Of a DNA stretch of 64,000 nt, positions 20,422-64,000 are shown in pieces. Under the pieces are notes generated by a model. The model saw only the letters and a list, made by a program, of their open reading frames with translations. It had not been told where the DNA came from and ran no database searches. Each line of letters begins with the position of its first letter. The first letter of the stretch is position 1. This stretch comes from an uncultured virus (IMG/VR IMGVR_UViG_3300027659_000012) (Duplodnaviria; Heunggongvirae; Uroviricota; Caudoviricetes), in IMG/VR virus record IMGVR_UViG_3300027659_000012, one strand, 5' to 3'. The translations under genes and the position numbers were made by a program.

Positions 20422-20946
20422 TTACGTGGTTGTTGCTGATTCCCAGTATTGGTAATTGAGTTCAACAGTGAAATCTTCGATAGCATCGTTGGTTTCATAG
20501 TTAAGTTCAATAGCCGACACATTGGTTGGGAATGCACCGCGAATGTTGTAAGTCTTGGTGACTTCACCTGCACGGTTAAGTTGCTCCACAGTCATATCAG
20601 TTTGATACAATGTTGGTGAAGATAAACCCGTATTCGTGACGTGCGAATTGATTCCGTTCATCCAACGCTCGAAAGCATTGCGAATATCCATTGCGGTGTC
20701 ATTGATGATCGTGATTGTCCAAGGTTCAAACGTACGATCACCTGCGATCTTAAGTTTTCTACCACGGAATGCAACCTCGATAGGTGCAACCACACTGGCC
20801 GGAAGAGTGGCACCCTTAATCATGAAGGATGCTAATTCACTGTTTCCACCTGCAAATGTTGGAAAGTTACATGTAACTTTGAAGAGGTTAGCGCGAGCGC
20901 CGCCTCCAATTAATTTTGACTTAAAGTCATCTACTCCTAAAGACAT
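20422..20946 (-). CDS. gp19: Tail tube protein
   Basis: GGARANLF, FRGRKLKIAGDRTFEPWTIT. Confidence 0.96.
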   Translation of the reverse strand: MSLGVDDFKSKLIGGGARANLFKVTCNFPTFAGGNSELASFMIKGATLPASVVAPIEVAFRGRKLKIAGDRTFEPWTITIINDTAMDIRNAFERWMNGINSHVTNTGLSSPTLYQTDMTVEQLNRAGEVTKTYNIRGAFPTNVSAIELNYETNDAIEDFTVELNYQYWESATTT

Positions 20947-42712: not shown

Positions 42713-42934
42713 TTATGCTTTAGCGTTTTGTAGTATCTGAGAAACCAATTCTTTGAGGGAAGCGATTTCTTCTTCCAGAGAAAGTATACGTTTTTCCTTT
42801 TGATCACCTTCCATTTTACGCGCTACGGCCATGGCATATCCGTGTGCGTCTCGATTTAATATCGCGTTTGATGAACTGTCACGCTCGAGTGAAGGCTCAT
42901 CCTTCACAGCTATCTTTGTTGTATTTTTACGCAT
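42713..42934 (-). CDS. Small coiled-coil hypothetical protein
   Basis: LERDSSSNAILN motif, follows VrlC-like gene as in T4-like cyanophages. Confidence 0.65.
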   Translation of the reverse strand: MRKNTTKIAVKDEPSLERDSSSNAILNRDAHGYAMAVARKMEGDQKEKRILSLEEEIASLKELVSQILQNAKA

Positions 42935-45900
42935 ATGTTGCTATTGCTCTAAAGTCTGTGATTGATGGGACATTCGGTCCATTTAATACCGATGAGGTGA
43001 ATACTATTTTTACACTCCATGTAGAGAATGAATTTCCAGGAGCGTATTGATAAGATATTTCTTGGAAATCACCGACATTAGAAGAGATTGGGATGGCAGT
43101 TGTTGGAGGTAATAATACCCATGGATTATTCGCAAAGATATCGGTATCTTTCGTTTGTATCTTGGCATAGACCAATATTGCCTCAGACGGCGAAGGAAGC
43201 CTCGCTCCTAAGTATATATTCAACTGATTGGCCGGATTGTTTAATTCAACAGCGCGAGTGATGTATCGTGCAGTCGCACTACCATTATCTAATGTTAATT
43301 CCGTGGAAGTATCACTGTTGATTTGATTATCGATCAATACAACCGAAGATCTATCGCAATCAATATATGGCGCAACATAATCGCTGCTAGTAGACAATGA
43401 AGCAACAAGTTTGATACCGTCACGTTTGACTGTGAACCTCCTTGGCAAGAAGAGCGTTTCATTGATATTGATATCGTATTCAAATGGAGTGACAAAGGCG
43501 ACATCAGTGAGATACAGTTTCCAAGAGATGTTAGTATTGTTCTGCGTGATATTCTCGACGGTAGTCTTGAGTGTCGAGAATGATAGCGAATCATTTCCGG
43601 GTTGATTCACACCTTGTATGATCACTTCACGCGTAACATTTGTAGTACTAAATTTAGCCCGATAGAGGCTAAATTTCATATCTTTGTTTTGATCCGCTGT
43701 CCAGGTAGAACCGTTTTGACTCTTGAACAATACGCCCGCATAAGGGTTCTTGGCGATTATTTCATAAGGAGCGACGATGTTTTCTTTTCCTACTTCAGAA
43801 ACATATACCATATAATCAGAATCATTTGACATTACTACGAACGCATATTCAATTCCGGGTTGAAGATAGACCGGAGAAGAAAATACGAATGTTGTAGGCG
43901 TAGTAGGTGCCGATGGGTTAATAACCACATCTGCCGCATCTTTCGTCAGTGCCGAGAATGGGATGATGTTTTGTGTGGGCATACCGTTCTCCATCGAGAC
44001 GATATGAACCGAAACTGGAATGTTTTTGGTCGATTTCGTCTTGAAATAGAGATCAAGCTTAGTGATGTATGCACCGTCGGTTTGTTTTTCGTCTAAGATA
44101 AACGACTGAGCCAATGGATCGTCCCAGGTAACTTTAACCACCGCAGCGTTTGTCCGACTATCGGATACCTTCGTAGTATCAAATCGCGGGATACGAGTCG
44201 AGATAATGGTATTTTCCTTTGTCTCTAAGATACCTGTCGCATAGTAGGTAGAATCAGCGATTGTAGTAAAATCGTTTGGATTATTAGTTAAAGAATCCGT
44301 CAAGCGGAACGAACGTTGACCAGTTTTAAATTTAAGGTCGCTGTTGTTAGGTATGATGAAATATCCATTGGCTTTACCGGTAGAATCAGATATAACAGGT
44401 GTAGCTGTAATTCCTAAAGAACCTACTGCCACGCCGTCGTATATGGTACTATCAGTTTGATTTTTGAATTGAACCACATCGATTAGCGGCACCGAAACAG
44501 TATAAGCGCTGATATCAACTCCGTCAAAGAATGGATAGACTCGAGTATTTGGTTTCAAACGAGTGGCTGTAAAATAGATTTTACGCGAACGAATGAAAGG
44601 GATATAACTTATATCTACGACTTTTTCTCCGAGACTTTCTTTATTATCAGTATATGATAAGGTAGTACGAGTTCCATCACGAAGACTAGTGCTGGTGACA
44701 GTAGTCGTAGTTTTTCTTCTCATCACACCATCCGGAGCTTTCGCAACGTGTTTGGCTCCTCTGTTAACCACAGGTGCTCCTGTCCAGTTAACTTCCCATT
44801 CATTCCAGTGATAACCCAGTAATCCTGAGGATTGAGCACTAAAGGCGATCGCGTCATATGCATTGTTATCATTGACGATGACGTCTGGTCTAACGATGGT
44901 TGATTTCCATTCATCCGAAGAAGGGGAAAGTTCAACTGCGCCGTTCCACATCGTCATATTAAACGGATTGACGCTCTCGGCGTTTGCCGTCGCATAAGTC
45001 TGTTCGATTATCTTTTCATCTGTATAAGCGATGCTGGTCGTATTATTATTGTTGCTCAACAGCGCATTTGTTTTGCTCGCAGAATCAACTTTAAGATCGA
45101 CAAGTGTAGTGGTATAATATGGAAGAAGTTGTCCATTTACTGAGTCGACGCTACATTTGTATCCAGCATTGGTCACATCGCCGATATTATGGCCAAAAAA
45201 GCTATCAACGATGATTCCGTTTTTATAACGCTGAAGACCACCTGCAGTCAAGATTTGTTTATCCTGGGCAGAGCGTTCGAGCAGCGAAAGGGAAGTATAA
45301 TACTCGATGTTAGAAACACGCTTCTCAATGTTGCCGATGTCGCGCATCGTATAACGTTTGTTATCGATGAAGGATGGCACAATTTCGTCAGTGCTAAAAG
45401 TATAGGCTGGAACGTATAGACTATACAGATTCATCGCATCCTTCGGTACTGCCGGAGCCACCGGATTTACCGCTGCGCTACCTTCGTCGATATAGAATTG
45501 ACCGGCGCTGTTTACTAAAACGTTGTCGACGCGAGGGAGATAATGACTTACAGTGGCGACGATGGTGGAATTGGAATCCAACCGAACTGCTGCGGTTTCT
45601 CCATTATCATATCTAAAATCGATACAATCGCCTAAACGAACACCGGCATATTTAGGAATATCTTCTAAACCGTCGAGAGCGCTATACGAATTGACGATGT
45701 ACGGCTTACCTGTCGCTGCAGTATGCGGGTAATACGAATACGTGATTGTTAATGCTGATGTCAATGGCGATGAATCTTTATAAACTAAAAGTGGAGTTTT
45801 AAAATAGTTTGAGGTGATTCCATCCTCGATCGTAAACTTAGATGTTACGTTTGTACCGCCGTTCATAATTTGCACTGATGAAGCGATGATATCCACATTA

Positions 45901-48008
45901 GTGAGACCTATGATATTCGTCGAGGCCATGATTCCTGTACCATTCGTGGAAAATTCGACCTTATGATCACCTCGATAAAGCGCTAACTGAAATCTCGTCG
46001 TATCAGTGTAAATCACATAATACGTTGTTTGCGTATATATTCCAGTAGTACTAACAATGGAAGAAAATGATACGCGATCGCCTTCTCTCAAACCATGTCC
46101 ACCAGCGATTGAAACATAATCACCGGCATCAGTAAATGTTACCGCTCTAGATGAATTTACTGTATACGTTGCAGACGACACTGTTTGCGTAGCCGCAGTA
46201 AGAGCCGATTTGCTATTGAATATGCTTGTTACAATAGTTGGAGCAATGATTGACGCGGTATTAGCGCCGCCTTGCGCAGCTCCGGGAACGAGCAGATATA
46301 CTCCAGAATTGGTATCGATATAGACCGAAGTTACAGGACGAACAACTCCGCCATGATCTACGACGATATAATTTGATGGGGAAGTATCCTCAAATTTTGA
46401 ACTGCTAAGATTCGGATGGGGAATATTCACCCATATTCCAGCTATTCCGTTTACAGTAGTCGAACTAGGAGTAGCAGTAAATGATGTACGAACGCCATAT
46501 CTCAGCGACGTGATCGAGTCAATTGCCTCATACGGAAATGGGAAAACGTTTGTGTTGTTGCTTGTTCCGAAGAGAGAGAATCCCGCAGTGTTAGCAAAAT
46601 TATGCACATCGACGTCTGCAATGACTGTAGTTAATGCTAAAAATTTAGCATCACTTAATCTTTTTCCATCGCATAATACTAAATCATAGATGAAGATGTT
46701 ATATGCGCCATTGGTAACATATTCTATGTTACGAATCCTGCACGCACCTATGAAAGTTGTGGCAGCCGCTTCTCCATAAAGGTTATATGTAAGAGTGGTA
46801 TTATTGATATCCGGCAAAGCGCCATTATTTGGAATATCTAAACTCGTCGAAACGATGTAGTTATCTTGACGAGCAGTGAAGGTAATGTTTTCGACTGTTT
46901 CGGTAGTATTTCTGGCTTTGTTTCCAACTAGATCATTTCGATCGGTCAATACGATTCGATATCCTTTGACGTATGCGATTGAAGGCTCGATGCCGGCAAT
47001 GTATTTGGTTTTTGCTACTGCCTCGTCAATACCACTTGGTAAATTTGCCAGAGTATACTTGCCAAAATTAGTTCCGTCATTAAAATATTCTTTTACGTCT
47101 AGTTTAAATGGACGAACGCTATAGTTACCAGACTCTTCGAATGTACGAGTGGCCAATAAATCATCTAAAGATTTGGCATCAGATGAATTACTATTAGGAA
47201 GCGCCGGCTTTAATGTCTGAGAATTTACAATCGTTAGCAGTTTGGCAAAATCATAAGATGGGATGTTGTCATCATAGATGAATACCAATTCTAAATTGAT
47301 AGCCTGACGATCTGCGCCTGGAGCCTGAAAGTTCGGTGAACCGGTGGCATTATCGAATAGCGTTTCATCGGCGACTGCAGTAATAATGGATTCAGTGATC
47401 TTGAACGCTGCGAAGCCATTGACCAGTTGTCCCGAAGTGATTGGAACAAAAAGTCGTTGCGGCGAATCATTGACAACAAATGATCCGTTAACGAAGAAGA
47501 TTCCTTTGTTGATGAAAAATCCTAATGAATATCCAACTCGCAAGACTGCACCAATAGCAGCGTTCGTATCAGTGTTATCGATCGTATCACTCACTGCAAA
47601 TACGCGAGTCGTACCATTCGTTGTATCAGACTTACTATATCTTAAGAAAAATCTATAAGTCGTCGTGACATCATCAGTTAATTCATATCCGATGATGTCA
47701 GCAGTAACACCGTCTTGATTCTTTAATGCGGTAGATGCCGCGGCTAACTCTGCAGTAGTTTCAATATCAACCGAATAGATATCATTCTTGAATGTAATGA
47801 GACCATCTACGACGGCAGCCCCATTCGTATAAAATGAAGATCCAAATTTATCAATTTGTGCACGAAGCATAGACTGAATCTGATTCAATTCCCTGTTCTG
47901 AACACTATATCCGGGTTTAAACAGAATCTGTTGAAAATTCTTATTTTCATTTGATGAACTGATAAAATCATCAAAGTACGGAGAATGCTGTTGTGTCGTG
48001 ATTGGCAT
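42927..48008 (-). CDS. Large virion structural protein, VrlC/DUF4815-like
   Basis: PYFDDF, LFKPG.SVQ.RELNQ, RTFEESGNY, RYTMRDIG, DPLAQSF, FKSQNGSTW. Confidence 0.88.
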   Translation of the reverse strand: MPITTQQHSPYFDDFISSSNENKNFQQILFKPGYSVQNRELNQIQSMLRAQIDKFGSSFYTNGAAVVDGLITFKNDIYSVDIETTAELAAASTALKNQDGVTADIIGYELTDDVTTTYRFFLRYSKSDTTNGTTRVFAVSDTIDNTDTNAAIGAVLRVGYSLGFFINKGIFFVNGSFVVNDSPQRLFVPITSGQLVNGFAAFKITESIITAVADETLFDNATGSPNFQAPGADRQAINLELVFIYDDNIPSYDFAKLLTIVNSQTLKPALPNSNSSDAKSLDDLLATRTFEESGNYSVRPFKLDVKEYFNDGTNFGKYTLANLPSGIDEAVAKTKYIAGIEPSIAYVKGYRIVLTDRNDLVGNKARNTTETVENITFTARQDNYIVSTSLDIPNNGALPDINNTTLTYNLYGEAAATTFIGACRIRNIEYVTNGAYNIFIYDLVLCDGKRLSDAKFLALTTVIADVDVHNFANTAGFSLFGTSNNTNVFPFPYEAIDSITSLRYGVRTSFTATPSSTTVNGIAGIWVNIPHPNLSSSKFEDTSPSNYIVVDHGGVVRPVTSVYIDTNSGVYLLVPGAAQGGANTASIIAPTIVTSIFNSKSALTAATQTVSSATYTVNSSRAVTFTDAGDYVSIAGGHGLREGDRVSFSSIVSTTGIYTQTTYYVIYTDTTRFQLALYRGDHKVEFSTNGTGIMASTNIIGLTNVDIIASSVQIMNGGTNVTSKFTIEDGITSNYFKTPLLVYKDSSPLTSALTITYSYYPHTAATGKPYIVNSYSALDGLEDIPKYAGVRLGDCIDFRYDNGETAAVRLDSNSTIVATVSHYLPRVDNVLVNSAGQFYIDEGSAAVNPVAPAVPKDAMNLYSLYVPAYTFSTDEIVPSFIDNKRYTMRDIGNIEKRVSNIEYYTSLSLLERSAQDKQILTAGGLQRYKNGIIVDSFFGHNIGDVTNAGYKCSVDSVNGQLLPYYTTTLVDLKVDSASKTNALLSNNNNTTSIAYTDEKIIEQTYATANAESVNPFNMTMWNGAVELSPSSDEWKSTIVRPDVIVNDNNAYDAIAFSAQSSGLLGYHWNEWEVNWTGAPVVNRGAKHVAKAPDGVMRRKTTTTVTSTSLRDGTRTTLSYTDNKESLGEKVVDISYIPFIRSRKIYFTATRLKPNTRVYPFFDGVDISAYTVSVPLIDVVQFKNQTDSTIYDGVAVGSLGITATPVISDSTGKANGYFIIPNNSDLKFKTGQRSFRLTDSLTNNPNDFTTIADSTYYATGILETKENTIISTRIPRFDTTKVSDSRTNAAVVKVTWDDPLAQSFILDEKQTDGAYITKLDLYFKTKSTKNIPVSVHIVSMENGMPTQNIIPFSALTKDAADVVINPSAPTTPTTFVFSSPVYLQPGIEYAFVVMSNDSDYMVYVSEVGKENIVAPYEIIAKNPYAGVLFKSQNGSTWTADQNKDMKFSLYRAKFSTTNVTREVIIQGVNQPGNDSLSFSTLKTTVENITQNNTNISWKLYLTDVAFVTPFEYDININETLFLPRRFTVKRDGIKLVASLSTSSDYVAPYIDCDRSSVVLIDNQINSDTSTELTLDNGSATARYITRAVELNNPANQLNIYLGARLPSPSEAILVYAKIQTKDTDIFANNPWVLLPPTTAIPISSNVGDFQEISYQYAPGNSFSTWSVKIVFTSSVLNGPNVPSITDFRAIATYA

Positions 48009-53007: not shown

Positions 53008-54450
53008 TTACCAGGTGGAATTATTACCGCGAGTATCTATATGAACAAAGGTGTTATATAAACCTAATCCGCCTCTAAACCTACCTTGATTGCGCCATGA
53101 CAACAGCGTATTATATACTGATTGCGGAGATTTTCCACTAACCTGAATATCAAGCGCATTGAATACTAAATGGAAACTTCCGAGTTTACCTCCTACATTA
53201 CGATTATATTCCGGACTTCTATATGAGCTAGTGATGGTTATTTCTCCGCCTAAGGCATCGCTTAATTCATCGACAACACGGAGCGTACTCACTATGTTTG
53301 GCCAGAGCGAAGAACTTGGAGTTTGATTTAGCGGTCTCGAGAAATAATTAGTGAATTCAGAGGCTGAGAAATGTTTGAATCCTTGTGCATTGAACCATTC
53401 GGCAAATTTTTGACCCTTAATGACTTCGACATGATTGATTCCGGATTGCATGGCCGAACGATCGGCAAGAGCTTTCCAATTTGCAGTTAAAGTAGTTTTT
53501 AATGCGATAGATGTTGAATCCGTTGCATCTTTAATCGCCGGCGTTTTGACAGTATGCAAAGTCATTTCGGTGACTAAAGAAGGCAGACTGTTAAGTATAG
53601 CATCCACATCCTCTGAAGATATAGTACCATTTGCGTCTTTAATTTTTTGCAAAAACTGTTCATTTACCTTGATCGCCGACAATTTGCATGCATTAATTGC
53701 TGCATTGACTTCTTCGATATCTTTCGAATATACAATATAGTCTTGTTGTGTAGATTGTTCGGCGCTAGATAAATTTTGAACTGCGGTATTATCTAAAGAT
53801 ATTCCTTGACCTTGGCATTTAACGACGAACGAAGCGTATGCCGCGCTCGAAACTATGGCTTCAAGGTTTGTATCAGAGCTTATTTTTAATTGATACAGTT
53901 CGCTGCTCTCAATCGTCTGAGTGATTGCTTTTCCGGCATCAGTGGCGGCAACCGTTTTCGTCGTGAATCCTTCTGGAAGATTATTTTTCATCGTGACCTC
54001 GGCCGGAGTTGATTTTTCCGGAGGACCAGAAGCAGTTATAGCCGGAGGAGCCTCGACGAATGCCGTACCATCAGGATTCAACTTATAGTTTGAACGCATC
54101 AGGTCACACGGATTGAGGTTTGCTAGATTCTGAACGATGGTTTCAATGTCAGAAACTATTTGTCCCCATTTTTCGATAAAGGCTTTTGTTTTTTGGGTAT
54201 AAGTGACGATATCTTCCCCGATACTATCTTTCAATTCTTGCAGATCTAATAAAAAGCTAGGTTTAAAATCTGGAAATGGCGGTATCAAAGCCTCGAATGC
54301 GTCTTTCAACTCATTCGCTTTATCTGTAATGGCACTTGTGACTGCTCCCGCAGCGTCTTTGATTTGTTGTTCCAATTCGCTCTTAAGTTTACTAATCGCC
54401 GAATCTAACGGATTTCCGGAACAAAGCAATTTAAGTGGGTCTAACTCCAT
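53008..54450 (-). CDS. Helical protein with C-terminal peptidase M15 (D-Ala-D-Ala peptidase-like) domain
   Basis: SSYRSPEYN, SFH...ALD, FVHIDTRG zinc ligands. Confidence 0.82.
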   Translation of the reverse strand: MELDPLKLLCSGNPLDSAISKLKSELEQQIKDAAGAVTSAITDKANELKDAFEALIPPFPDFKPSFLLDLQELKDSIGEDIVTYTQKTKAFIEKWGQIVSDIETIVQNLANLNPCDLMRSNYKLNPDGTAFVEAPPAITASGPPEKSTPAEVTMKNNLPEGFTTKTVAATDAGKAITQTIESSELYQLKISSDTNLEAIVSSAAYASFVVKCQGQGISLDNTAVQNLSSAEQSTQQDYIVYSKDIEEVNAAINACKLSAIKVNEQFLQKIKDANGTISSEDVDAILNSLPSLVTEMTLHTVKTPAIKDATDSTSIALKTTLTANWKALADRSAMQSGINHVEVIKGQKFAEWFNAQGFKHFSASEFTNYFSRPLNQTPSSSLWPNIVSTLRVVDELSDALGGEITITSSYRSPEYNRNVGGKLGSFHLVFNALDIQVSGKSPQSVYNTLLSWRNQGRFRGGLGLYNTFVHIDTRGNNSTW

Positions 54451-54458
54451 ACGCGTAT

Positions 54459-55592
54459 TTATGGATTAAGATTTATCAATGAACCGGTGATGGTAGTCAC
54501 ACTCGCAGCGCCGATAGACATCGTTCCTCCCGCTGAGGTGTCTAAATTTCCACTCGTGAAATCAACTCTGGGTCCTAATGTTTTGAAACTTGTATCCGTA
54601 GAAGTGAAATCTAATTTTCGGCAATCTATCTTTGATATACCCGAAACGATCATTGAATCGTTTGTACCTATCGTAATTTGTCTTTCTCCGCCAATGTTTT
54701 GTGTGACCTTTCCATAAACCTCGGCATTGTAGTCTGCGCCAGTTTTGATGATCTTGGACCCTTTGATATTTTCATTGTAATTACCCTCGACCTCGAGGTT
54801 ATAGTTTCCGCGAATCAAAGTATTGCAATCGCCGACGATGGTCAGGTTACAAGTTCCGTATATGTAAACGTTATCGTCCTTGGCTACTATTTTATATGAA
54901 GAGCCAACAAGTGTTGTAGTTAAATTTCCGCCAGAATCGATCTGACGCATAGTCCCGCTGCAATGTGTTTCAGAGATACGTTCGGCGCCAGGCGTATCAT
55001 CTACCTCGATCACGTGACCACTTACCGTACGAGTCGCGCTATTATACGGATACGAAGGCTTAACGGTATCAGCAGTCGAAGGAGGAGTAAAAGAGCCTCG
55101 CGTAGCGTCTTCTGCGGTGGGATCGATCGACGTGATTGCCGGCGGAATAGCAGATTCTATCGTTTGATGATCTGTTTGTTGTTGGATACTATATCCAGTA
55201 CTCTTTTTATATTTGTTTGTTGCTATTTCCGGAGTATCGACACCATTACGTTTAGGATATACCCCGGAAGGATCGGCGAAGGTTGAACCCGGTTGAACGC
55301 GAGTAGAATTTCCAGGAATAGATCCAACGATTATTGGATCCTGATAATCTTCTCCGTCTCGAAAAAATCCCATTACCCATGAACCCGGCAAAAGTCCTGT
55401 TGAAGTTTGACCGATTCCGGATATCGATGCCGAGGTGACAGGCATCAACGGCGTAGCCCAAGGGAGAGATGACGTAGGAAGTTCCTCGGAATCTGGTGTA
55501 TGATAACCTATCGCCCGAACCTTGATTCTTCCTCTTTCTTGCGGGTCGTTGATATCCTCTACGACGCCGGTAAACCATTTTAAATCATTCAT
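54459..55592 (-). CDS. gp5: Baseplate hub spike, no lysozyme domain
   Basis: WFTGVVED..DP...GR.KVR OB-fold, GHVIEVDDTPGAER, beta-helix C-terminus. Confidence 0.9.
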   Translation of the reverse strand: MNDLKWFTGVVEDINDPQERGRIKVRAIGYHTPDSEELPTSSLPWATPLMPVTSASISGIGQTSTGLLPGSWVMGFFRDGEDYQDPIIVGSIPGNSTRVQPGSTFADPSGVYPKRNGVDTPEIATNKYKKSTGYSIQQQTDHQTIESAIPPAITSIDPTAEDATRGSFTPPSTADTVKPSYPYNSATRTVSGHVIEVDDTPGAERISETHCSGTMRQIDSGGNLTTTLVGSSYKIVAKDDNVYIYGTCNLTIVGDCNTLIRGNYNLEVEGNYNENIKGSKIIKTGADYNAEVYGKVTQNIGGERQITIGTNDSMIVSGISKIDCRKLDFTSTDTSFKTLGPRVDFTSGNLDTSAGGTMSIGAASVTTITGSLINLNP

Positions 55593-59131: not shown

Positions 59132-59293
59132 ATGGCGTATCGTGGAAAATATAGGGTGAAAAACCCAGAAAAATATGAAGGCGATCATACGCGAGTAGAA
59201 TATCGATCCCTCTGGGAGAGACAAGTTTTTAAGTTAACTTTCCCATTTTATAAATACATTAATGGAAGAATGGAGAAAAAGATTACTAGATAA
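59132..59293 (+). pseudogene. Orphan 5' stub of gp4
   Basis: MAYRGKYRVKNPEKYEGDHTRVEYRSLWERQVFK matches the gp4 N-terminus, then diverges to a stop at 59293. Confidence 0.85.
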
Positions 59294-59789
59294 CCCACCT
59301 CCATGCGCAAGTATTTTTGATCTAGAAGAATGGGAAGACATAGTTATCAATGAACTTACCGCAGATCCTAGTTTGTGGGGAGGAGCGTCATTTGGTCAAT
59401 TAACCGATGAGCATAAAGAAAATATATCTAAAACATTGATGGGACATTCGGTTTCAGCTGAAACTAGAAGAAAAATATCCGAAGCTGGAATCGGCAGAAT
59501 TAGTAGCAATGAAACTAATTCAAAACGAAGCAAAAGTATGAAAGGCAAAACTCATTCGACGCAAGCAAAACAAAAAATGAGAGAGAAAGCGTTAAACCGC
59601 CAACATACTGACGAAACTAAAGAAAAAATATCCAAAGCAGGAAGGGGTATTTTACGAAGTAAAGAATTTAAAGATAACTTAAAAGAAGTAGTTAAAGGTA
59701 GAATTCATATAACAAATGGAGAAATAAATAAATTTGTTCATAAAGAAAATATACCAGAAGGATTTTGGCCAGGAAGAATACTTAAATGA
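59262..59789 (+). CDS. NUMOD3-repeat DNA-binding protein (homing-endonuclease C-terminal type, no evident nuclease domain)
   Basis: Repeated H(S/T)xETxxKIS motifs, ITNG...IPEGFWPGR end; AT-rich; own TATAAATA. Confidence 0.75.
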   Translation: MEEWRKRLLDNPPPCASIFDLEEWEDIVINELTADPSLWGGASFGQLTDEHKENISKTLMGHSVSAETRRKISEAGIGRISSNETNSKRSKSMKGKTHSTQAKQKMREKALNRQHTDETKEKISKAGRGILRSKEFKDNLKEVVKGRIHITNGEINKFVHKENIPEGFWPGRILK

Positions 59790-60241
59790 GTAAATACTAT
59801 AGTGGAAGGTTTAGACCAAAAAATATCGAAAAGTATGAAGGCGATCATACAAATGTAAGATATAGATCCTCTTGGGAGAGAGCTGTTCTAAAGTGGTTAG
59901 ATGAGAATCCAAATGTTATAAAATATAGTTCAGAGGAAGTCGTAGTTCCTTATCGTTGCAAGACCGATAACAAGATGCATCGGTATTTCGTCGACATCAA
60001 AGTTCAATTTCGTGGAGGCGTCACGTACCTGATCGAGATCAAACCTAAAAAAGAGACAATGCCTCCGAAGGTGCGTGAACGTAAGACGCGAGGTTATCTG
60101 ATGGAGGTGATGACCTACGCCAAGAATATCTCTAAATGGGAGAGTGCCACCGAATATGCCAAGGATCGTGGATGGATATTTGAGATTTGGCACGAGGATA
60201 CAATCAAGAGTCTTGGTATTAAATTGCTCACCTCTAAGTGA
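59786..60241 (+). CDS. gp4: Head completion nuclease (TnsA-like PD-(D/E)XK)
   Basis: YRSSWE, HRYFVD, LIEIKP, N..KW..A. Confidence 0.92.
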   Translation: MSKYYSGRFRPKNIEKYEGDHTNVRYRSSWERAVLKWLDENPNVIKYSSEEVVVPYRCKTDNKMHRYFVDIKVQFRGGVTYLIEIKPKKETMPPKVRERKTRGYLMEVMTYAKNISKWESATEYAKDRGWIFEIWHEDTIKSLGIKLLTSK

Positions 60242-60257
60242 TTTATAAATAGATCTT

Positions 60258-60863
60258 ATGCGTAAAGAAGTTTTTAGTGACATTCAAAAGAAGTTTTCTT
60301 CCTCTGGATTGGGTGCTAGGACTACCGAGGCGCGTGATTGGTTTTTACAGAATCTTAAGAACTATTCCAGCCTCAATCGCAACAATCTATTAAAGGATTC
60401 TGCGTTGACTCGCAAGACATCGATCGACTCAAAGGCCACATCGATCGGCAAGATGTATATGTTTAGGTACGACCCGAAACATAAAGAAACTTTACCTTAC
60501 TTCGATAAATTTCCTTTGATCCTTATGGTGGGTCCTGCCGAGGGAGGTTTCTACGGACTGAATTTACACTATCTTCCACCTAGACTTCGTGCATTATTGT
60601 TTGATCGTCTATTACCTTATACGAACAACGATAAGTTTGATCAGACAACTCGCTTTCGTCTGACGTATCAGTTACTCACCTCGGTCTCTAAATTAAAAAT
60701 ATTTGCTCCGTGCTTCAAACACTATCTACTGAAGCATGTCACATCCAACACCATGGAAGTGCCTGCCAATGAATGGGAAGTCGCGATGTTTCTTCCTACG
60801 GATCAGTTCGCATATCAAACCAAGCGAACGGTCTGGAATAAAAGTAAAAAATCAATAATGTAA
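60258..60863 (+). CDS. gp2: DNA end protector
   Basis: YDPKHKETLPYFDKFPL, GLNLHYLPP, CFKHYL. Confidence 0.93.
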   Translation: MRKEVFSDIQKKFSSSGLGARTTEARDWFLQNLKNYSSLNRNNLLKDSALTRKTSIDSKATSIGKMYMFRYDPKHKETLPYFDKFPLILMVGPAEGGFYGLNLHYLPPRLRALLFDRLLPYTNNDKFDQTTRFRLTYQLLTSVSKLKIFAPCFKHYLLKHVTSNTMEVPANEWEVAMFLPTDQFAYQTKRTVWNKSKKSIM

Positions 60864-60864
60864 T

Positions 60865-61575
60865 ATGTCTATATTTTCATCGATCACCGGTCTTATAACA
60901 AAGACAGAAAATTATATCAATCCGAACACCATTGATGACTTCAAAAGTTCGATAAGTAGGCGTAATGGCCTGGCGATGACGAACCGTTTCTTGATAATGG
61001 TTCAACCTCCTAGTCAATCCTTACTTAATTTTAATATAGGCGACCTTGCCAGCAAAGTATTGCTCGGCAATAAGATTAATGTATCTGACTTTATCAATGA
61101 TCCGCGTGACATCGCGATGCTTTGTGAAAGCTGCTCTCTTCCGGGAAGACAGATCCAAACCACGGAATATTCGGCCTATAGACAACCAGTAAAAATTCCA
61201 ACCGGTTATATCAACGAAGACGTTACGATGACCTTTCATCTTACGAACGATTACTATATTCGTAAGGTATTCGATAAGTGGCATGCTCTGGTGATTAACT
61301 ATGATTCGTACCTTTTGAATTATAATAAAGACTTTTGTGCAGATATTATCATTCAACAGCTCGATATGAATAATAAACCGGTCTATGCGGTAAAATTAAA
61401 AAATGCATATCCAGTAGGAATAAACAGCGTCGCCTTAGACAACACTCAATCGGATTCTCCTCAAAAATTAGTGATTCAACTCACGTATGAAGACTTTGAA
61501 CCAATGGGTGCCATCGCATCTACGGTTGCAGGAGTCAAGAACAGCATCACGGGTATCCTGAATAAATTGATATAA
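60865..61575 (+). CDS. Baseplate tail tube initiator, gp54/gp19-like
   Basis: GLAMTNRF, CESCSLPG, NAYP. Confidence 0.75.
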   Translation: MSIFSSITGLITKTENYINPNTIDDFKSSISRRNGLAMTNRFLIMVQPPSQSLLNFNIGDLASKVLLGNKINVSDFINDPRDIAMLCESCSLPGRQIQTTEYSAYRQPVKIPTGYINEDVTMTFHLTNDYYIRKVFDKWHALVINYDSYLLNYNKDFCADIIIQQLDMNNKPVYAVKLKNAYPVGINSVALDNTQSDSPQKLVIQLTYEDFEPMGAIASTVAGVKNSITGILNKLI

Positions 61576-61586
61576 ATTATATTACT

Positions 61587-62297
61587 ATGGCATTACCCAC
61601 AATCAACACACCGAAATATCAACTTAAGTTACCTTCCACTGGAGAAGCCATAACTTATCGTCCGTTTTTGGTAAAAGAAGAAAAGATCTTGCTGATCGCG
61701 CAAGAAACCAAAGATCCAAAACAAATGATGATGGCCATGAGAGACATCATCTCGGCATGTACGTTTGAAAAGGTAAAAACAACTGAAATTACCGGATTCG
61801 ATCTTGAATACATCTTCTTAAAACTCAGAGCAAAGAGCGTCGGTGAAAATGCCGATATCAAGATTCAATGCACTCATTGCGAAGAATTTAATGACATCTC
61901 GATCAACCTCGACGATATTTCAGTGGTCGTTCCGGATAAGAGCAACAACGTGATCATGCTGACGGATTCCATCGGTGTCACGCTTAAGTATGTGACCGCC
62001 GAGAAGATGGAAAAGATCACGGCGCTGATCGATACAAATCAGATGGCAGTCATCAATGAACTGATCATCAACTCCATTGAATCCATCTTTGATGCCGATA
62101 ATGTCTATGCTGCCGCAGATTCTACTCCCGCAGAACTTACGCAATTCATCGAATCTCTGAATAGAAAACAAATGGAAAAGATCGAGGCATTCATCGCGAA
62201 TGCTCCGAAGCTTCAACACACCTGTGAATTCACTTGTTGCAAGTGTGAACTAGAAAACTCCATCAATCTTCAAGGAATTCAGTCTTTTTTCGAATAA
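61587..62297 (+). CDS. gp26: Baseplate hub assembly chaperone
   Basis: MALPTINTPKY, YRPFLVKEEKILL, LRAKSVGE, two CxxC. Confidence 0.92.
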   Translation: MALPTINTPKYQLKLPSTGEAITYRPFLVKEEKILLIAQETKDPKQMMMAMRDIISACTFEKVKTTEITGFDLEYIFLKLRAKSVGENADIKIQCTHCEEFNDISINLDDISVVVPDKSNNVIMLTDSIGVTLKYVTAEKMEKITALIDTNQMAVINELIINSIESIFDADNVYAAADSTPAELTQFIESLNRKQMEKIEAFIANAPKLQHTCEFTCCKCELENSINLQGIQSFFE

Positions 62298-62476
62298 GCC
62301 TCTCGCACGAATCATTGGAAAATTTGTATCAAACGAATTTTGCTCTGATGCAACATCATAAATATAGCCTAACGGAATTAGATGATATGTTACCGTGGGA
62401 GAGGGAAATCTATACCGCATTACTCATAGAACATCTAAAAGAAGAAAAACGTAAGAACGAATCGGCTAATCACTAA
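62285..62476 (+). CDS. gp51: Baseplate hub assembly catalyst, in -1 frame of gp26
   Basis: Manual translation FFRISLSHESLENLYQTNFALMQHHKYSLTELDDMLPWEREIY...NH*. Confidence 0.8.
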   Translation, partial: FFRISLSHESLENLYQTNFALMQHHKYSLTELDDMLPWEREIYTALLIEHLKEEKRKNESANH

Positions 62477-62481
62477 CCATC

Positions 62482-64000
62482 ATGGAATCCATAAGCAATA
62501 ATCTGTTACTTCAGGACGTGATCCTAGAATTACAAATCTCTAACGAAAATGTTTCGGGTATAGAGACCGGAGTGACGATGCTCACTGATTCCATTTCAAA
62601 GTTATCTGTCACAAATACGAAAGATAACAGTCAACTCATCGAACGAGATGATAAGATGATTACTGTATTGAAGACGATCGGTCTGGTCAACACTCACATG
62701 TTGAATACAATGGATCGTTTGTATAAGTTTTTCATGGATAATGATATGGTTCGTGCCGAGGAACATCGGGATTTGGTGGATGCCATCGAAGATATCGGCA
62801 AAGGTTCAACTAAAGGTGGAGCAACGTTTGATACGAAAAAACCAAAGGGAATACTCGGTCTCTTAGCCGGAGTCGCGGTATTTGCGGCAGGCGTATTGAT
62901 AGGATTCTTCGAAGAGCTAGTGCGAAAGATCAAGATGCTCGGCTTTTATGGAAAAATACTTGGAGTATTTTCTAGTATCAGTACGATGTTCGGTCGTATC
63001 GGAGAATTTATCACCGAATCAAAGTTGTACGAAAAGATGAAAGATGCTTTTAGTAAAGTAGGAAGCATCTTCGGCGGAATCGGTAGGTTCTTTGGAAAGA
63101 TTGGTTCCGTCCTAGGAAAAGTATTAGAACCAGCATTGAACTTCATTCGACAAATGCCAATTAGTCGTTTTATTGGTACCATTGCCGAAATGGTTGGTAA
63201 AATGTTTAGTCTAATCATGAAACCAATTAAATTTATTATGAGGCTCTTTGGTAGTGTCGGCAGCGCCAGTGCTTTAGGCACAATCTTTAGATTGGGCAAA
63301 GGTCTCGGAAAGATTTTAGGTAAACTAGCATTGCCAATCACCATCATCATGGGCATCGTTGAAGCAGCGATGGGAGCGTTCGAAGGTTATAAGACCGGCG
63401 GAATTATGGGGGCAATCAAAGGAGGACTAAAGGGACTTCTGGAAAGTTTAATTGGATGGATGATTGATATCCCCAAAGATCTAATTTCTTGGCTATTAGA
63501 AAAATTTGGTTTTGAAAATGCCTCGAAGTGGCTTGACAGCTGGAATTTTGGTATGCTATTCGATGGTCTCTGGAAAGCTTTCTCCGATCTATGGAATGGA
63601 GTCGTTTCGGCATTAGGCGCAGTTAGTGATTGGTGGAGTAGTTGGTCCTTTGAAGGAGTATTCACGAGCATCAAAGATTTCTTCTTCGGAATCTGGGATG
63701 ATGTCATTGACTGGTTAGATGGAATGGGGCAAGGTCTACTCGATGTGTTTGGTAGCGCCACGAATTTCATGTTAGATTTCTATCGTAAAATTCTCAACAT
63801 CATCTTGCCGGATCCAACGAAACATACAAGCATGACGGATCCACTTTATTGGGTCGCTAAGGCAGTGCCTGATGCGGTATACGATTTTGCCAAGGTACAA
63901 CAAGCCCCGAACATTGTTGCAAACAGCATTCAAGGAGTTCCTGGAACAAATGGAGGAGCGCTGATGTCAAGCGGTGGAGGTGGAGCAAATGTTACGATCA
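62482..64000 (+). CDS. Tape measure protein (partial, runs off window)
   Basis: Long frame from MESISNNLL; Gly/Ala-rich hydrophobic helices with periodic F/W; follows gp26/gp51. Confidence 0.7.
   Translation, partial: MESISNNLLLQDVILELQISNENVSGIETGVTMLTDSISKLSVTNTKDNSQLIERDDKMITVLKTIGLVNTHMLNTMDRLYKFFMDNDMVRAEEHRDLVDAIEDIGKGSTKGGATFDTKKPKGILGLLAGVAVFAAGVLIGFFEELVRKIKMLGFYGKILGVFSSISTMFGRIGEFITESKLYEKMKDAFSKVGSIFGGIGRFFGKIGSVLGKVLEPALNFIRQMPISRFIGTIAEMVGKMFSLIMKPIKFIMRLFGSVGSASALGTIFRLGKGLGKILGKLALPITIIMGIVEAAMGAFEGYKTGGIMGAIKGGLKGLLESLIGWMIDIPKDLISWLLEKFGFENASKWLDSWNFGMLFDGLWKAFSDLWNGVVSALGAVSDWWSSWSFEGVFTSIKDFFFGIWDDVIDWLDGMGQGLLDVFGSATNFMLDFYRKILNIILPDPTKHTSMTDPLYWVAKAVPDAVYDFAKVQQAPNIVANSIQGVPGTNGGALMSSGGGGANVTI

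What the first reader, a model, noticed from the sequence alone, without database searches (positions are those of the whole stretch)
62270..62484. Probable -1 ribosomal frameshift fusing gp26 and gp51 upstream of tape measure
Seen: gp26 ends TCT TTT TTC GAA TAA, containing the X XXY YYZ heptamer T TTT TTC (62285-62291). The -1 frame reads FFRISLSHESLENLYQTNFALMQHHKYSL...PWERE, i.e. gp51, whose apparent homology begins before its first ATG; no SD is present. The tape measure gene starts 5 nt after its stop. Established: lambda G/GT-type tail chaperones use this frameshift layout just upstream of the tape measure gene. Inference: gp26/gp26-51 are the G/GT equivalents here, which I do not know to be described for T4-like phages.
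Basis: partly seen in the sequence, partly recalled or inferred. Interest (0 to 1): 0.82.

Follow-up and report, generated by a model that had tools for sequence, protein, structure and literature searches.

The report
Frameshifted gp26/gp51 tail chaperone gene
This uncultured freshwater T4-like phage very probably makes a short and a long form of its tail-assembly chaperone from one gene, because some ribosomes slip back one base on a conserved run of T's; the feature is real, but it appears to have been published for T4-like phages in 2022.

Summary
The gp26-like gene (61587-62297) ends in T TTT TTC (62285-62291), one codon before its stop. The -1 frame continues into a 61-codon gp51-like extension that stops 5 nt before the tape measure gene.

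A heptamer alone is not rare. The signal is its conservation: 93 of 93 relatives whose gp26 stop lay inside the fetched DNA (88 distinct) carry an in-frame T TTT TTN there, as do 2 of 3 more distant phages checked later. The preceding codon always ends in T although its residue varies. Third-position variability switches from frame 0 to frame -1 at the heptamer. Most relatives have no start codon ahead of the conserved block.

T4 gp51 is a gp26-family domain plus this extension in a single frame, and it aligns across the junction. The modelled N-terminal domain resembles the HK97 tail assembly chaperone at middling scores.

So this is a lambda G/GT-type chaperone pair. It is not new in principle. 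Vladimirov, Gautam and Davidson (Virology 2022) identified these chaperone genes, and a citing paper credits them with the poly-T slip signal. I could not read that paper itself.

This scan has noted the same thing on other DNA (169 notes, 142 citing that paper). No phage record I opened annotates the slip, and I found no experimental proof.

The parts
61587..62297 (+). gp26-like gene, short form of the tail assembly chaperone (236 aa, stop included)
   Evidence: Pfam PF12322 T4_baseplate E 1.4e-59 and phrog_150 E 2.8e-64. AlphaFold2 model: mean pLDDT 92.5. Residues 1-95 align to the HK97 tail assembly chaperone 2ob9_B at Z 7.1 and to YqbN 3klu_A at Z 6.7.
62272..62276 (+). AAGGA, a Shine-Dalgarno-like stretch ending 8 nt before the heptamer; a possible stimulator (inferred, weak)
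   Evidence: In 61 of 86 relatives an SD-like motif ends 8-10 nt before the heptamer; 21 of 86 have none. This is confounded with the conserved Glu/Lys-Gly residues encoded there.
62285..62291 (+). slippery heptamer T TTT TTC in X XXY YYZ phase
   Evidence: An in-frame T TTT TTN is found in 93 of 93 relatives. The preceding codon always ends in T: AGT 28, AAT 20, TCT 18, GAT 15, GCT 5, GGT 1, CAT 1.
62295..62297 (+). gp26 stop codon TAA, one codon after the heptamer
   Evidence: The stop lies 3 nt after the heptamer in 71 of 88 distinct loci and directly after it in 13.
62291..62476 (+). -1 frame extension (gp51-like 'T' part; 61 codons plus stop); base 62291 is read twice
   Evidence: phrog_634 E 1.8e-26 from residue 2. 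Third-position variability follows this frame from the heptamer onward. 6 of 6 natural variants are synonymous in this frame. The model shows three helices, pLDDT 80.8.
62482..64000 (+). 5' part of the tape measure gene (runs off the window)
   Evidence: ORF open to the end of the window. Tape-measure PHROGs: phrog_305 E 2.7e-10, phrog_1272 E 1.5e-9 and others.
60865..61575 (+). tail-tube-family gene directly upstream (gp54-like tube initiator)
   Evidence: PF06841 Phage_T4_gp19 E 2.1e-7 and phrog_45 E 1.1e-36. The same place is annotated 'baseplate tail tube initiator' in HTVC008M, phi-pp2, P10VF and S13.

Best explanation
A programmed -1 ribosomal frameshift. Most ribosomes read gp26 to its stop and make a 236-residue chaperone.

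A minority slip while the two Phe-tRNAs sit on UUU UUC (62286-62291). They re-pair one base back on UUU UUU and continue in the -1 frame for 61 more codons. This gives a 296-residue gp26-gp51 fusion.

By analogy with lambda G/GT, the shared N-terminal chaperone domain would hold the tape measure protein, whose gene follows. The three-helix extension, present in few copies, would dock the complex to the tube or hub to start tail assembly. Neither form is expected in the virion.

Shown here: the sequence layout, its conservation, the frame switch of coding constraint, and the collinear in-frame T4 gp51.

Inferred: that the slip is ribosomal, its frequency, and all binding partners.
For: 1. The heptamer, the stop and the -1 ORF are as described.

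2. 93 of 93 loci whose gp26 stop lay in the locus have an in-frame T TTT TTN within the last 60 nt. These are the window, 13 named phages and 79 of 80 IMG/VR loci; L063 ran off its end. 88 are distinct. They include distant and GC-rich lineages: KVP40-like phi-pp2, Cr30, ACP17, phiM19, S-CRM01, DLP_6, HTVC008M and Melnitz. P10VF and Cronobacter S13 also have it.

3. The residue before Phe-Phe varies (S, N, D, A, G, H), but its codon always ends in T, and the first Phe codon is always TTT. Under independence, with the genes' own codon usage, log10 P is -20.7 and -15.5. Relatedness inflates both figures.

4. Mean column entropy by codon position was measured in -1 phase on 86 loci. Upstream it is 1.73/1.36/0.96, so frame 0 is coding. 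At +9..+60 it is 1.05/0.70/1.46, the same pattern as +60..+126 (0.78/0.45/1.40). The conserved block ahead of the first Met is therefore translated in the -1 frame.

5. The first ATG after the slip is at codon +20 or later in 59 of 86 loci, and at +33 or later in 7. In 11 of 86 a stop sits directly before the heptamer in the -1 frame.

6. T4 gp51 (249 aa) is PF12322 over residues 1-201 (E 3.9e-52) plus the gp51 tail. The window's conceptual fusion aligns with it in one segment across the junction, E 9e-9 against two sequences.

7. Contigs of two other runs cover the junction with 0 differences and no indel. A variant population shows 6 of 6 changes that are synonymous third positions in the -1 frame. 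One of them turns TTG 62315 into TTA.

8. Sharma et al. 2014 list H_HH.U_UU.Y among the most efficient -1 motifs in E. coli (PMC4066793, passage seen).
Against: - There is no experiment: no RNA or protein data for this phage or, as far as I could find, for any relative.
- No conserved RNA structure lies downstream. RNAalifold gave 0 pairs on 86 loci and on the 8 nearest. The window's own hairpin starts about 27 nt after the heptamer and is not significant (z -1.77).
- The frequency may therefore be low. Lambda G/GT also works at a low level (PMC5009743).
- The same protein would arise from transcriptional slippage.
- 17 of 86 relatives have an ATG within 8 codons of the slip. Vibrio phage K364 has no heptamer but a TAATG stop-start overlap. 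A free small gp51 is therefore possible in some lineages.
- The fold match to chaperones is middling: Z 7-8, the range the tool calls common for unrelated best hits.
Confidence: 0.8

Rival explanations
1. Transcriptional slippage. RNA polymerase adds one U in the T6 run in a fraction of transcripts. Those mRNAs encode the same 296-residue fusion without any ribosomal slip.
For: - The site is a homopolymer run. It is 6 T long in 55 of 86 loci, 7 in 29 and 8 in 2.
- The conserved wobble T also lengthens the run, so that signal does not separate the two mechanisms.
- The product would be identical.
[quoted passage not shown] I could not read what it means beyond the two-gene arrangement described.
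Against: - The run is only 6 T in 55 of 86 loci.
- The second Phe codon is TTC in 53 loci and TTT in 33, although these genes use TTT for 67% of Phe codons elsewhere. P is 7e-8 under independence. This is the opposite of selection for a longer run.
- The phase is fixed as X XXY YYZ in 93 of 93 loci.
- From recall, efficient slippage by bacterial RNA polymerase needs runs of about 8-9.
Confidence: 0.1
2. gp51 is a separate small protein made by its own initiation (TTG 62315, ATG 62348, or re-initiation after the gp26 stop). On this reading the heptamer is incidental.
For: - Annotators call a separate gp51 CDS in many records.
- 17 of 86 relatives have an ATG, and 25 of 86 an ATG, GTG or TTG, at or before codon +8.
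- Vibrio phage K364 has a stop-start overlap and no heptamer.
Against: - In the window the conserved, coding-constrained block 62291-62347 lies ahead of the first ATG.
- A natural variant destroys the TTG by a change that is silent in the -1 frame.
- 59 of 86 relatives have no ATG before codon +20.
- S-CAM8, ACG-2014i, ACP17 and S13 have no gp51 CDS called at all.
- T4 gp51 carries the segment fused in frame to a gp26-type domain.
Confidence: 0.06
3. Artefact or decay: a one-base sequencing or assembly error in a homopolymer, or a recent frameshift mutation in a gene that is normally one ORF.
For: Homopolymer runs are error-prone. T4 has a single-frame long form.
Against: - A contig of run X2 covers 62100-62650 and one of X3 covers 62141-62650, each with 0 differences. 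No indels are listed in four runs. X2 is near-identical and may not be independent of the window's source.
- The same two-frame layout is seen in 93 of 93 relatives from many samples and from cultured phages.
Confidence: 0.01

Closest known systems
[quoted passage not shown] Seen only as a title in reference lists and in two citing passages: PMC10885494 and PMC12846349.
   Same: The same gene family (PF12322 plus the gp51 tail), the same role, and, according to the citing passage, the same poly-T slip signal in the short-form gene.
   Different: This phage is new: no near DNA match among 50,697 phage records, and the best gp26 identity there is 43%. I cannot say which lineages, statistics or experiments the paper covers.
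Phage T4 gp26 (208 aa) and gp51 (249 aa), hub assembly chaperones (Leiman et al. 2010, PMC3004832, passages seen)
   Same: T4 gp26 corresponds to the short form. T4 gp51 corresponds to the long form: a gp26-family domain plus the extension. PMC3004832 says gp51 is needed for assembly but is absent from the particle.
   Different: T4 uses two genes on opposite strands and no slip. This two-gene form is seen in 1375 phage records. Gene 51 is not next to the tape measure gene 29 in T4.
Lambda gpG/gpGT and the conserved -1 frameshift of tail assembly chaperone genes (Xu, Hendrix, Duda 2004, recalled; Atkins et al. 2016, PMC5009743, passages seen)
   Same: Two overlapping ORFs directly before the tape measure gene; a -1 slip near the end of the first; a short and a long form; no need for a strong RNA structure.
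   Different: There is no sequence similarity. gp26 is about twice as long as the solved HK97 chaperone chains that its N-terminal domain matches (236 aa against about 105), and it carries a Cys-rich C-terminal domain. The heptamer is U-only. The host phage has a contractile tail and a T4-type baseplate hub. The 2016 review still names T4 as the exception.
HK97 tail assembly chaperone (PDB 2ob9) and B. subtilis YqbN (3klu)
   Same: Residues 1-95 of the model superpose on both: Z 7.1 (83 residues, rmsd 4.2) and Z 6.7 (85 residues, rmsd 4.3). 2ob9_A is rank 2 in Foldseek.
   Different: Identity is 7-9%. The scores lie in the range that unrelated best hits also reach. Residues 96-236 have no counterpart.

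Membership tests
Frameshifted tail assembly chaperone pair (lambda G/GT type) | Two overlapping ORFs directly upstream of the tape measure gene | tested here: met
   gp26 is 61587-62297 and the -1 ORF runs to 62476. The tape-measure-like ORF starts at 62482.
Frameshifted tail assembly chaperone pair (lambda G/GT type) | A slippery X XXY YYZ heptamer near the end of the first ORF, with the second ORF in the -1 frame, conserved in relatives | tested here: met
   T TTT TTC at 62285-62291. 93 of 93 relatives have it, as do 2 of 3 further distant phages.
Frameshifted tail assembly chaperone pair (lambda G/GT type) | The second ORF has no start of its own and is translated only as an extension | tested here: inconclusive
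   In the window and in 59 of 86 relatives the conserved block precedes any ATG. 17 of 86 have an early ATG.
Frameshifted tail assembly chaperone pair (lambda G/GT type) | Two proteins made in a set ratio by ribosomal slippage | not testable with these tools
   No RNA holder was listed. There are no protein data.
Frameshifted tail assembly chaperone pair (lambda G/GT type) | The chaperone fold of the shared N-terminal part | tested here: inconclusive
   VIA-align gives 3fgx_B Z 8.0, 2ob9_B (HK97 chaperone) Z 7.1 and 3klu_A (YqbN) Z 6.7; the next rows are at 5.3 or lower. Foldseek finds nothing at E <= 0.001.
Frameshifted tail assembly chaperone pair (lambda G/GT type) | The short part binds the tape measure protein and the extension binds the tube protein | not testable with these tools
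T4 gp26 family (Pfam PF12322 T4_baseplate) | A profile match above the curated cut-off | tested here: met
   201.9 bits against a cut-off of 24.5, E 1.4e-59, residues 9-236.
gp51 'baseplate hub assembly catalyst' (phrog_634), C-terminal part of T4 gp51 | A profile match, and collinearity with T4 gp51 across the junction | tested here: met
   phrog_634 E 1.8e-26. A single BLAST segment joins fusion residues 24-280 to T4 gp51 residues 16-244.

The most novel reading that the evidence does not exclude
The frameshifted single gene may be the general and probably older state of the whole T4 superfamily, from cyanophages and pelagiphages to KVP40-like Straboviridae and Pootjesviridae. On this reading the two-gene T4 arrangement is a derived duplication.

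The slip would then run on the bare U-rich heptamer, helped only by the adjacent stop codon and an upstream SD-like stretch. A third solution, stop-start coupling, would exist in K364-like Vibrio phages.

If the 2022 paper did not cover this breadth, these signals or the mechanism, then the phase-locked codon evidence here is new. So is the annotation gap: about 540 public phage records have a gp51-like extension and no slip annotated.
Probability: 0.2. Interest if true: 0.45.

Novelty: new member of a known kind. Interest (0 to 1): 0.25.

Why it matters
The frameshift closes, for this phage group, the 'except T4' gap in the otherwise general rule that long-tailed phages make their tail chaperone in two forms by a frameshift (PMC5009743).

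It also explains why 'gp51' of cyanophages and their kin is only about 60 residues long and often has no start codon.

There is a practical point for annotation. None of the 16 named non-T4 phage records I opened annotates the slip. Several omit gp51 or start it at an internal Met.

The principle itself is already in print, so this locus is one more well-supported example.

Tried and rejected
- **RNA stimulator.** RNAalifold gave no pairs for four windows around the site on 86 loci or on the 8 nearest relatives. Single-sequence folds of the window gave z -1.77, -0.71 and +1.60. Rfam gave nothing relevant, only a chance snoRNA match at E 0.3 on the other strand.
- **Expression.** No RNA holder was listed among 21 runs.
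- **Binding test.** Complex prediction (tube protein 20422-20943 with the extension alignment A2) met a full queue and was then declared unavailable. Nothing was folded.
- **Family and structure searches that found nothing:**
  - A PDB search by sequence with the gp26 profile found nothing below E 0.05.
  - Foldseek against the PDB found nothing at E <= 0.001.
  - NCBIfam had no family for gp26, the extension, the tape measure protein or the tube-like protein.
  - Pfam had no family for the extension or the tape measure protein.
  - Megablast of 60000-64000 against the phage collection found no match.
- **Literature.** The key paper is not held. Six full-text searches found no open paper that describes the gp26/gp51 slip directly. 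It surfaced only through the reference list of PMC10885494. A third citing paper (PMC12859696) added no detail.
- **Sequencing-error reading.** Rejected; see the rival explanations.
Full report
**What is there.** The window carries a T4-type structural module. It holds the major head protein, scaffold, portal, tube (20422-20946, minus strand), sheath, baseplate wedge and hub genes. After these come gp4, gp2, a tube-family gene (60865-61575) and the locus in question.

- The 236-codon ORF 61587-62297 is a gp26-family protein: PF12322, E 1.4e-59; phrog_150, E 2.8e-64.
- Its last codons are CAG TCT TTT TTC GAA TAA. T TTT TTC therefore lies at 62285-62291 in X XXY YYZ phase, one codon before the stop.
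- The -1 frame is open from 62249 to a TAA at 62474-62476. From the heptamer it reads FFRISLSHESL....
- That peptide matches the gp51 family phrog_634 from its second residue (E 1.8e-26). It also matches the C-terminal 46 positions of phrog_150.
- A tape-measure-like ORF starts 5 nt later, at 62482, and runs off the window.

**Is it more than chance?** A slippery pattern alone is not. In-frame X XXY YYZ heptamers occur 105 times elsewhere in 88 gp26 ORFs. The evidence lies in comparison.

I collected 94 loci:
- the window;
- 13 stretches of named phages;
- the 80 best IMG/VR loci, kept out of at least 600 matches.

One locus (L063) ends before the gp26 stop. In the other 93, an in-frame T TTT TTN lies within the last 60 nt of gp26. 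88 of these are distinct.
- The seventh base is C in 53, T in 33 and A in 2.
- The stop follows after 3 nt in 71, directly in 13, and after 6-24 nt in 4.
- The residue before Phe-Phe varies, yet its codon always ends in T: AGT 28, AAT 20, TCT 18, GAT 15, GCT 5, GGT 1, CAT 1.
- The first Phe codon is always TTT.
- With the codon usage of these same genes and assuming independence, log10 P is -20.7 and -15.5. The sequences are related, so these figures overstate the case. The pattern nevertheless spans seven different codons.
- It also holds in GC-rich phages (ACP17, DLP_6) and in distant lineages: KVP40-like phi-pp2, Cr30, phiM19, S-CRM01, HTVC008M and Melnitz.

Three further distant phages were checked later.
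- P10VF has T TTT TTG.
- Cronobacter S13 has T TTT TTC.
- Vibrio phage K364 has no heptamer. It has a TAATG stop-start overlap instead.

**The frame of translation switches at the heptamer.** I measured column entropy on 86 gapless loci.
- Upstream of the heptamer, the most variable codon position is the third position of frame 0.
- From +9 to +60, which is before the conserved Met, the most variable position is the third position of the -1 frame: 1.05/0.70/1.46 bits.
- The later, undisputed gp51 part shows the same pattern: 0.78/0.45/1.40 bits.

Start codons do not explain this block.
- The first ATG after the slip lies at codon +20 or later in 59 of 86 loci, and at +33 or later in 7.
- In 11 of 86 a stop codon sits directly before the heptamer in the -1 frame.
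- 17 of 86 do have an ATG within 8 codons. A free gp51 cannot be excluded for those.
- In the window no ATG, GTG or TTG lies in the -1 frame before 62315.

**Independent samples.** The stretch is held by DNA runs of freshwater, lake, river and sediment metagenomes: 20 holders in 14 studies. No RNA run is listed.
- A contig of run X2 covers 62100-62650, and one of X3 covers 62141-62650, each with 0 differences. No indel is listed in four runs.
- X2 is near-identical and may not be independent of the window's source.
- Variant contigs in X4 differ at 62305, 62308, 62311, 62317, 62320 and 62452.
- All six are third positions of -1 frame codons and are synonymous there. All five changes between 62305 and 62320 would change the residue, or create a stop, in either other frame.

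**A natural in-frame version exists.** In T4, gene 26 lies on the minus strand and gene 51 on the plus strand.
- T4 gp51 (249 aa) matches the gp26 family PF12322 over residues 1-201 (E 3.9e-52). It matches phrog_150 over its full length.
- The window's conceptual long form (296 aa) aligns with T4 gp51 in a single segment that runs through the junction.
- T4 therefore makes the short and long forms from two genes. This two-gene form is found in 1375 records of the phage collection.
- The small gp51-type extension is found in 551 records, of which 539 cover at least 80% of it.

**Fold.**
- An AlphaFold2 model of gp26 on 56 homologues has mean pLDDT 92.5.
- Foldseek finds nothing at E <= 0.001. 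The HK97 tail assembly chaperone 2ob9_A is rank 2, with the highest probability in the list, 0.44.
- The wide VIA-align search covers 48,161 chains. It puts 3fgx_B (Z 8.0), the HK97 chaperone 2ob9_B (Z 7.1) and YqbN 3klu_A (Z 6.7) on top, all on residues 1-95. The next rows are at 5.3 and below.
- These scores are in the range the tool calls common for unrelated best hits. I count the fold as suggestive only.
- That YqbN belongs to a chaperone family is my recollection.
- The extension is modelled as three helices, pLDDT 80.8.

**Mechanism.**
- The most likely mechanism is tandem -1 slippage of the two Phe-tRNAs.
- U-rich heptamers of the type H_HH.U_UU.Y are listed among the most efficient in E. 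coli (PMC4066793, passage).
- I found no conserved RNA structure.
- Two context features are common. One is the stop codon 0-3 nt after the heptamer, in 84 of 88 loci. The other is an SD-like stretch ending 8-10 nt before it, in 61 of 86 loci; in the window this is AAGGA at 62272-62276. Their role is inferred, and the second is confounded with conserved residues.
- Transcriptional slippage would give the same protein. It is disfavoured because the run is only 6 T in 55 of 86 loci, and because TTC is preferred over TTT as the second Phe codon against the genes' own usage.

**What is known.**
- A 2016 review states that the G-T frameshift is conserved among long-tailed phages 'except T4' (PMC5009743, passage).
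- Leiman et al. 2010 list gp26 and gp51 as hub assembly chaperones (PMC3004832, passages).
- The PRFect paper cites Vladimirov, Gautam and Davidson (Virology 2022;566:9-15). It cites them for the point that some T4-like phages carry one short and one long fused chaperone gene instead of frameshifting (PMC10885494, passage).
- The 2022 paper itself is not held. I saw only its title and these passages.
- One phage record already names gp51 'tape measure protein assembly chaperone'.
- Earlier notes of this scan describe the same feature on other DNA: 169 notes, of which 142 cite the 2022 paper. I reached the paper independently.

**Verdict.** The feature is very probably real (0.8 for a ribosomal -1 slip; about 0.9 for a fused long form by either kind of slippage). 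The principle is already published, so this is a new member of a known kind. What remains open is experimental proof, the mechanism, the binding partners, and the missing annotation in public records.

Noticed in passing
L096:1102-2105 (Vibrio phage K364): A distant gp26 relative (22% identity) has no slippery heptamer. Its small downstream ORF starts with an ATG that overlaps the gp26 stop (TAATG). This looks like a third way, stop-start coupling, to express the gp51-like part.
   Followed up: partly
L095:1201-2069 (Rhizobium phage P10VF) and L097:1177-2090 (Cronobacter phage S13): P10VF has T TTT TTG, the only G at the seventh base that I saw. S13, a member of the Straboviridae, has T TTT TTC and a -1 extension, but no gp51 CDS is annotated.
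   Followed up: partly
L086, L087, L089, L091, L093, L095 (HTVC008M, Melnitz, Cr30, phiM19, DLP_6, P10VF): These phages have one more small hypothetical ORF (about 80-150 aa) between gp51 and the tape measure gene. The window and the cyanophages lack it.
   Followed up: no
window 59262-59789 (+): A 175-aa ORF between the gp48-like and gp4-like genes has a weak match to a homing endonuclease family (phrog_314, E 1.5e-8).
   Followed up: no
window 53008-55592 (-): The gp5-like hub protein is only 376 aa. The neighbouring 479-aa ORF carries an endolysin/peptidase-type C-terminal domain (phrog_894, E 1.4e-18). The cell-wall enzyme may therefore sit on a separate protein here.
   Followed up: no
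window 42927-48008 (-): A 1692-aa ORF inside the baseplate module matches only PHROGs of unknown function (phrog_358, phrog_877).
   Followed up: no
window 62318-62341 (+): A local 9-bp hairpin starts about 27 nt after the heptamer (z -1.77). It is not conserved in the nearest relatives.
   Followed up: yes
L084:3803-4429 (T4 gene 26, minus strand): T4 annotates an internal product 26' (the last 95 codons of gene 26). It is not clear whether the frameshift-type phages have a counterpart.
   Followed up: no
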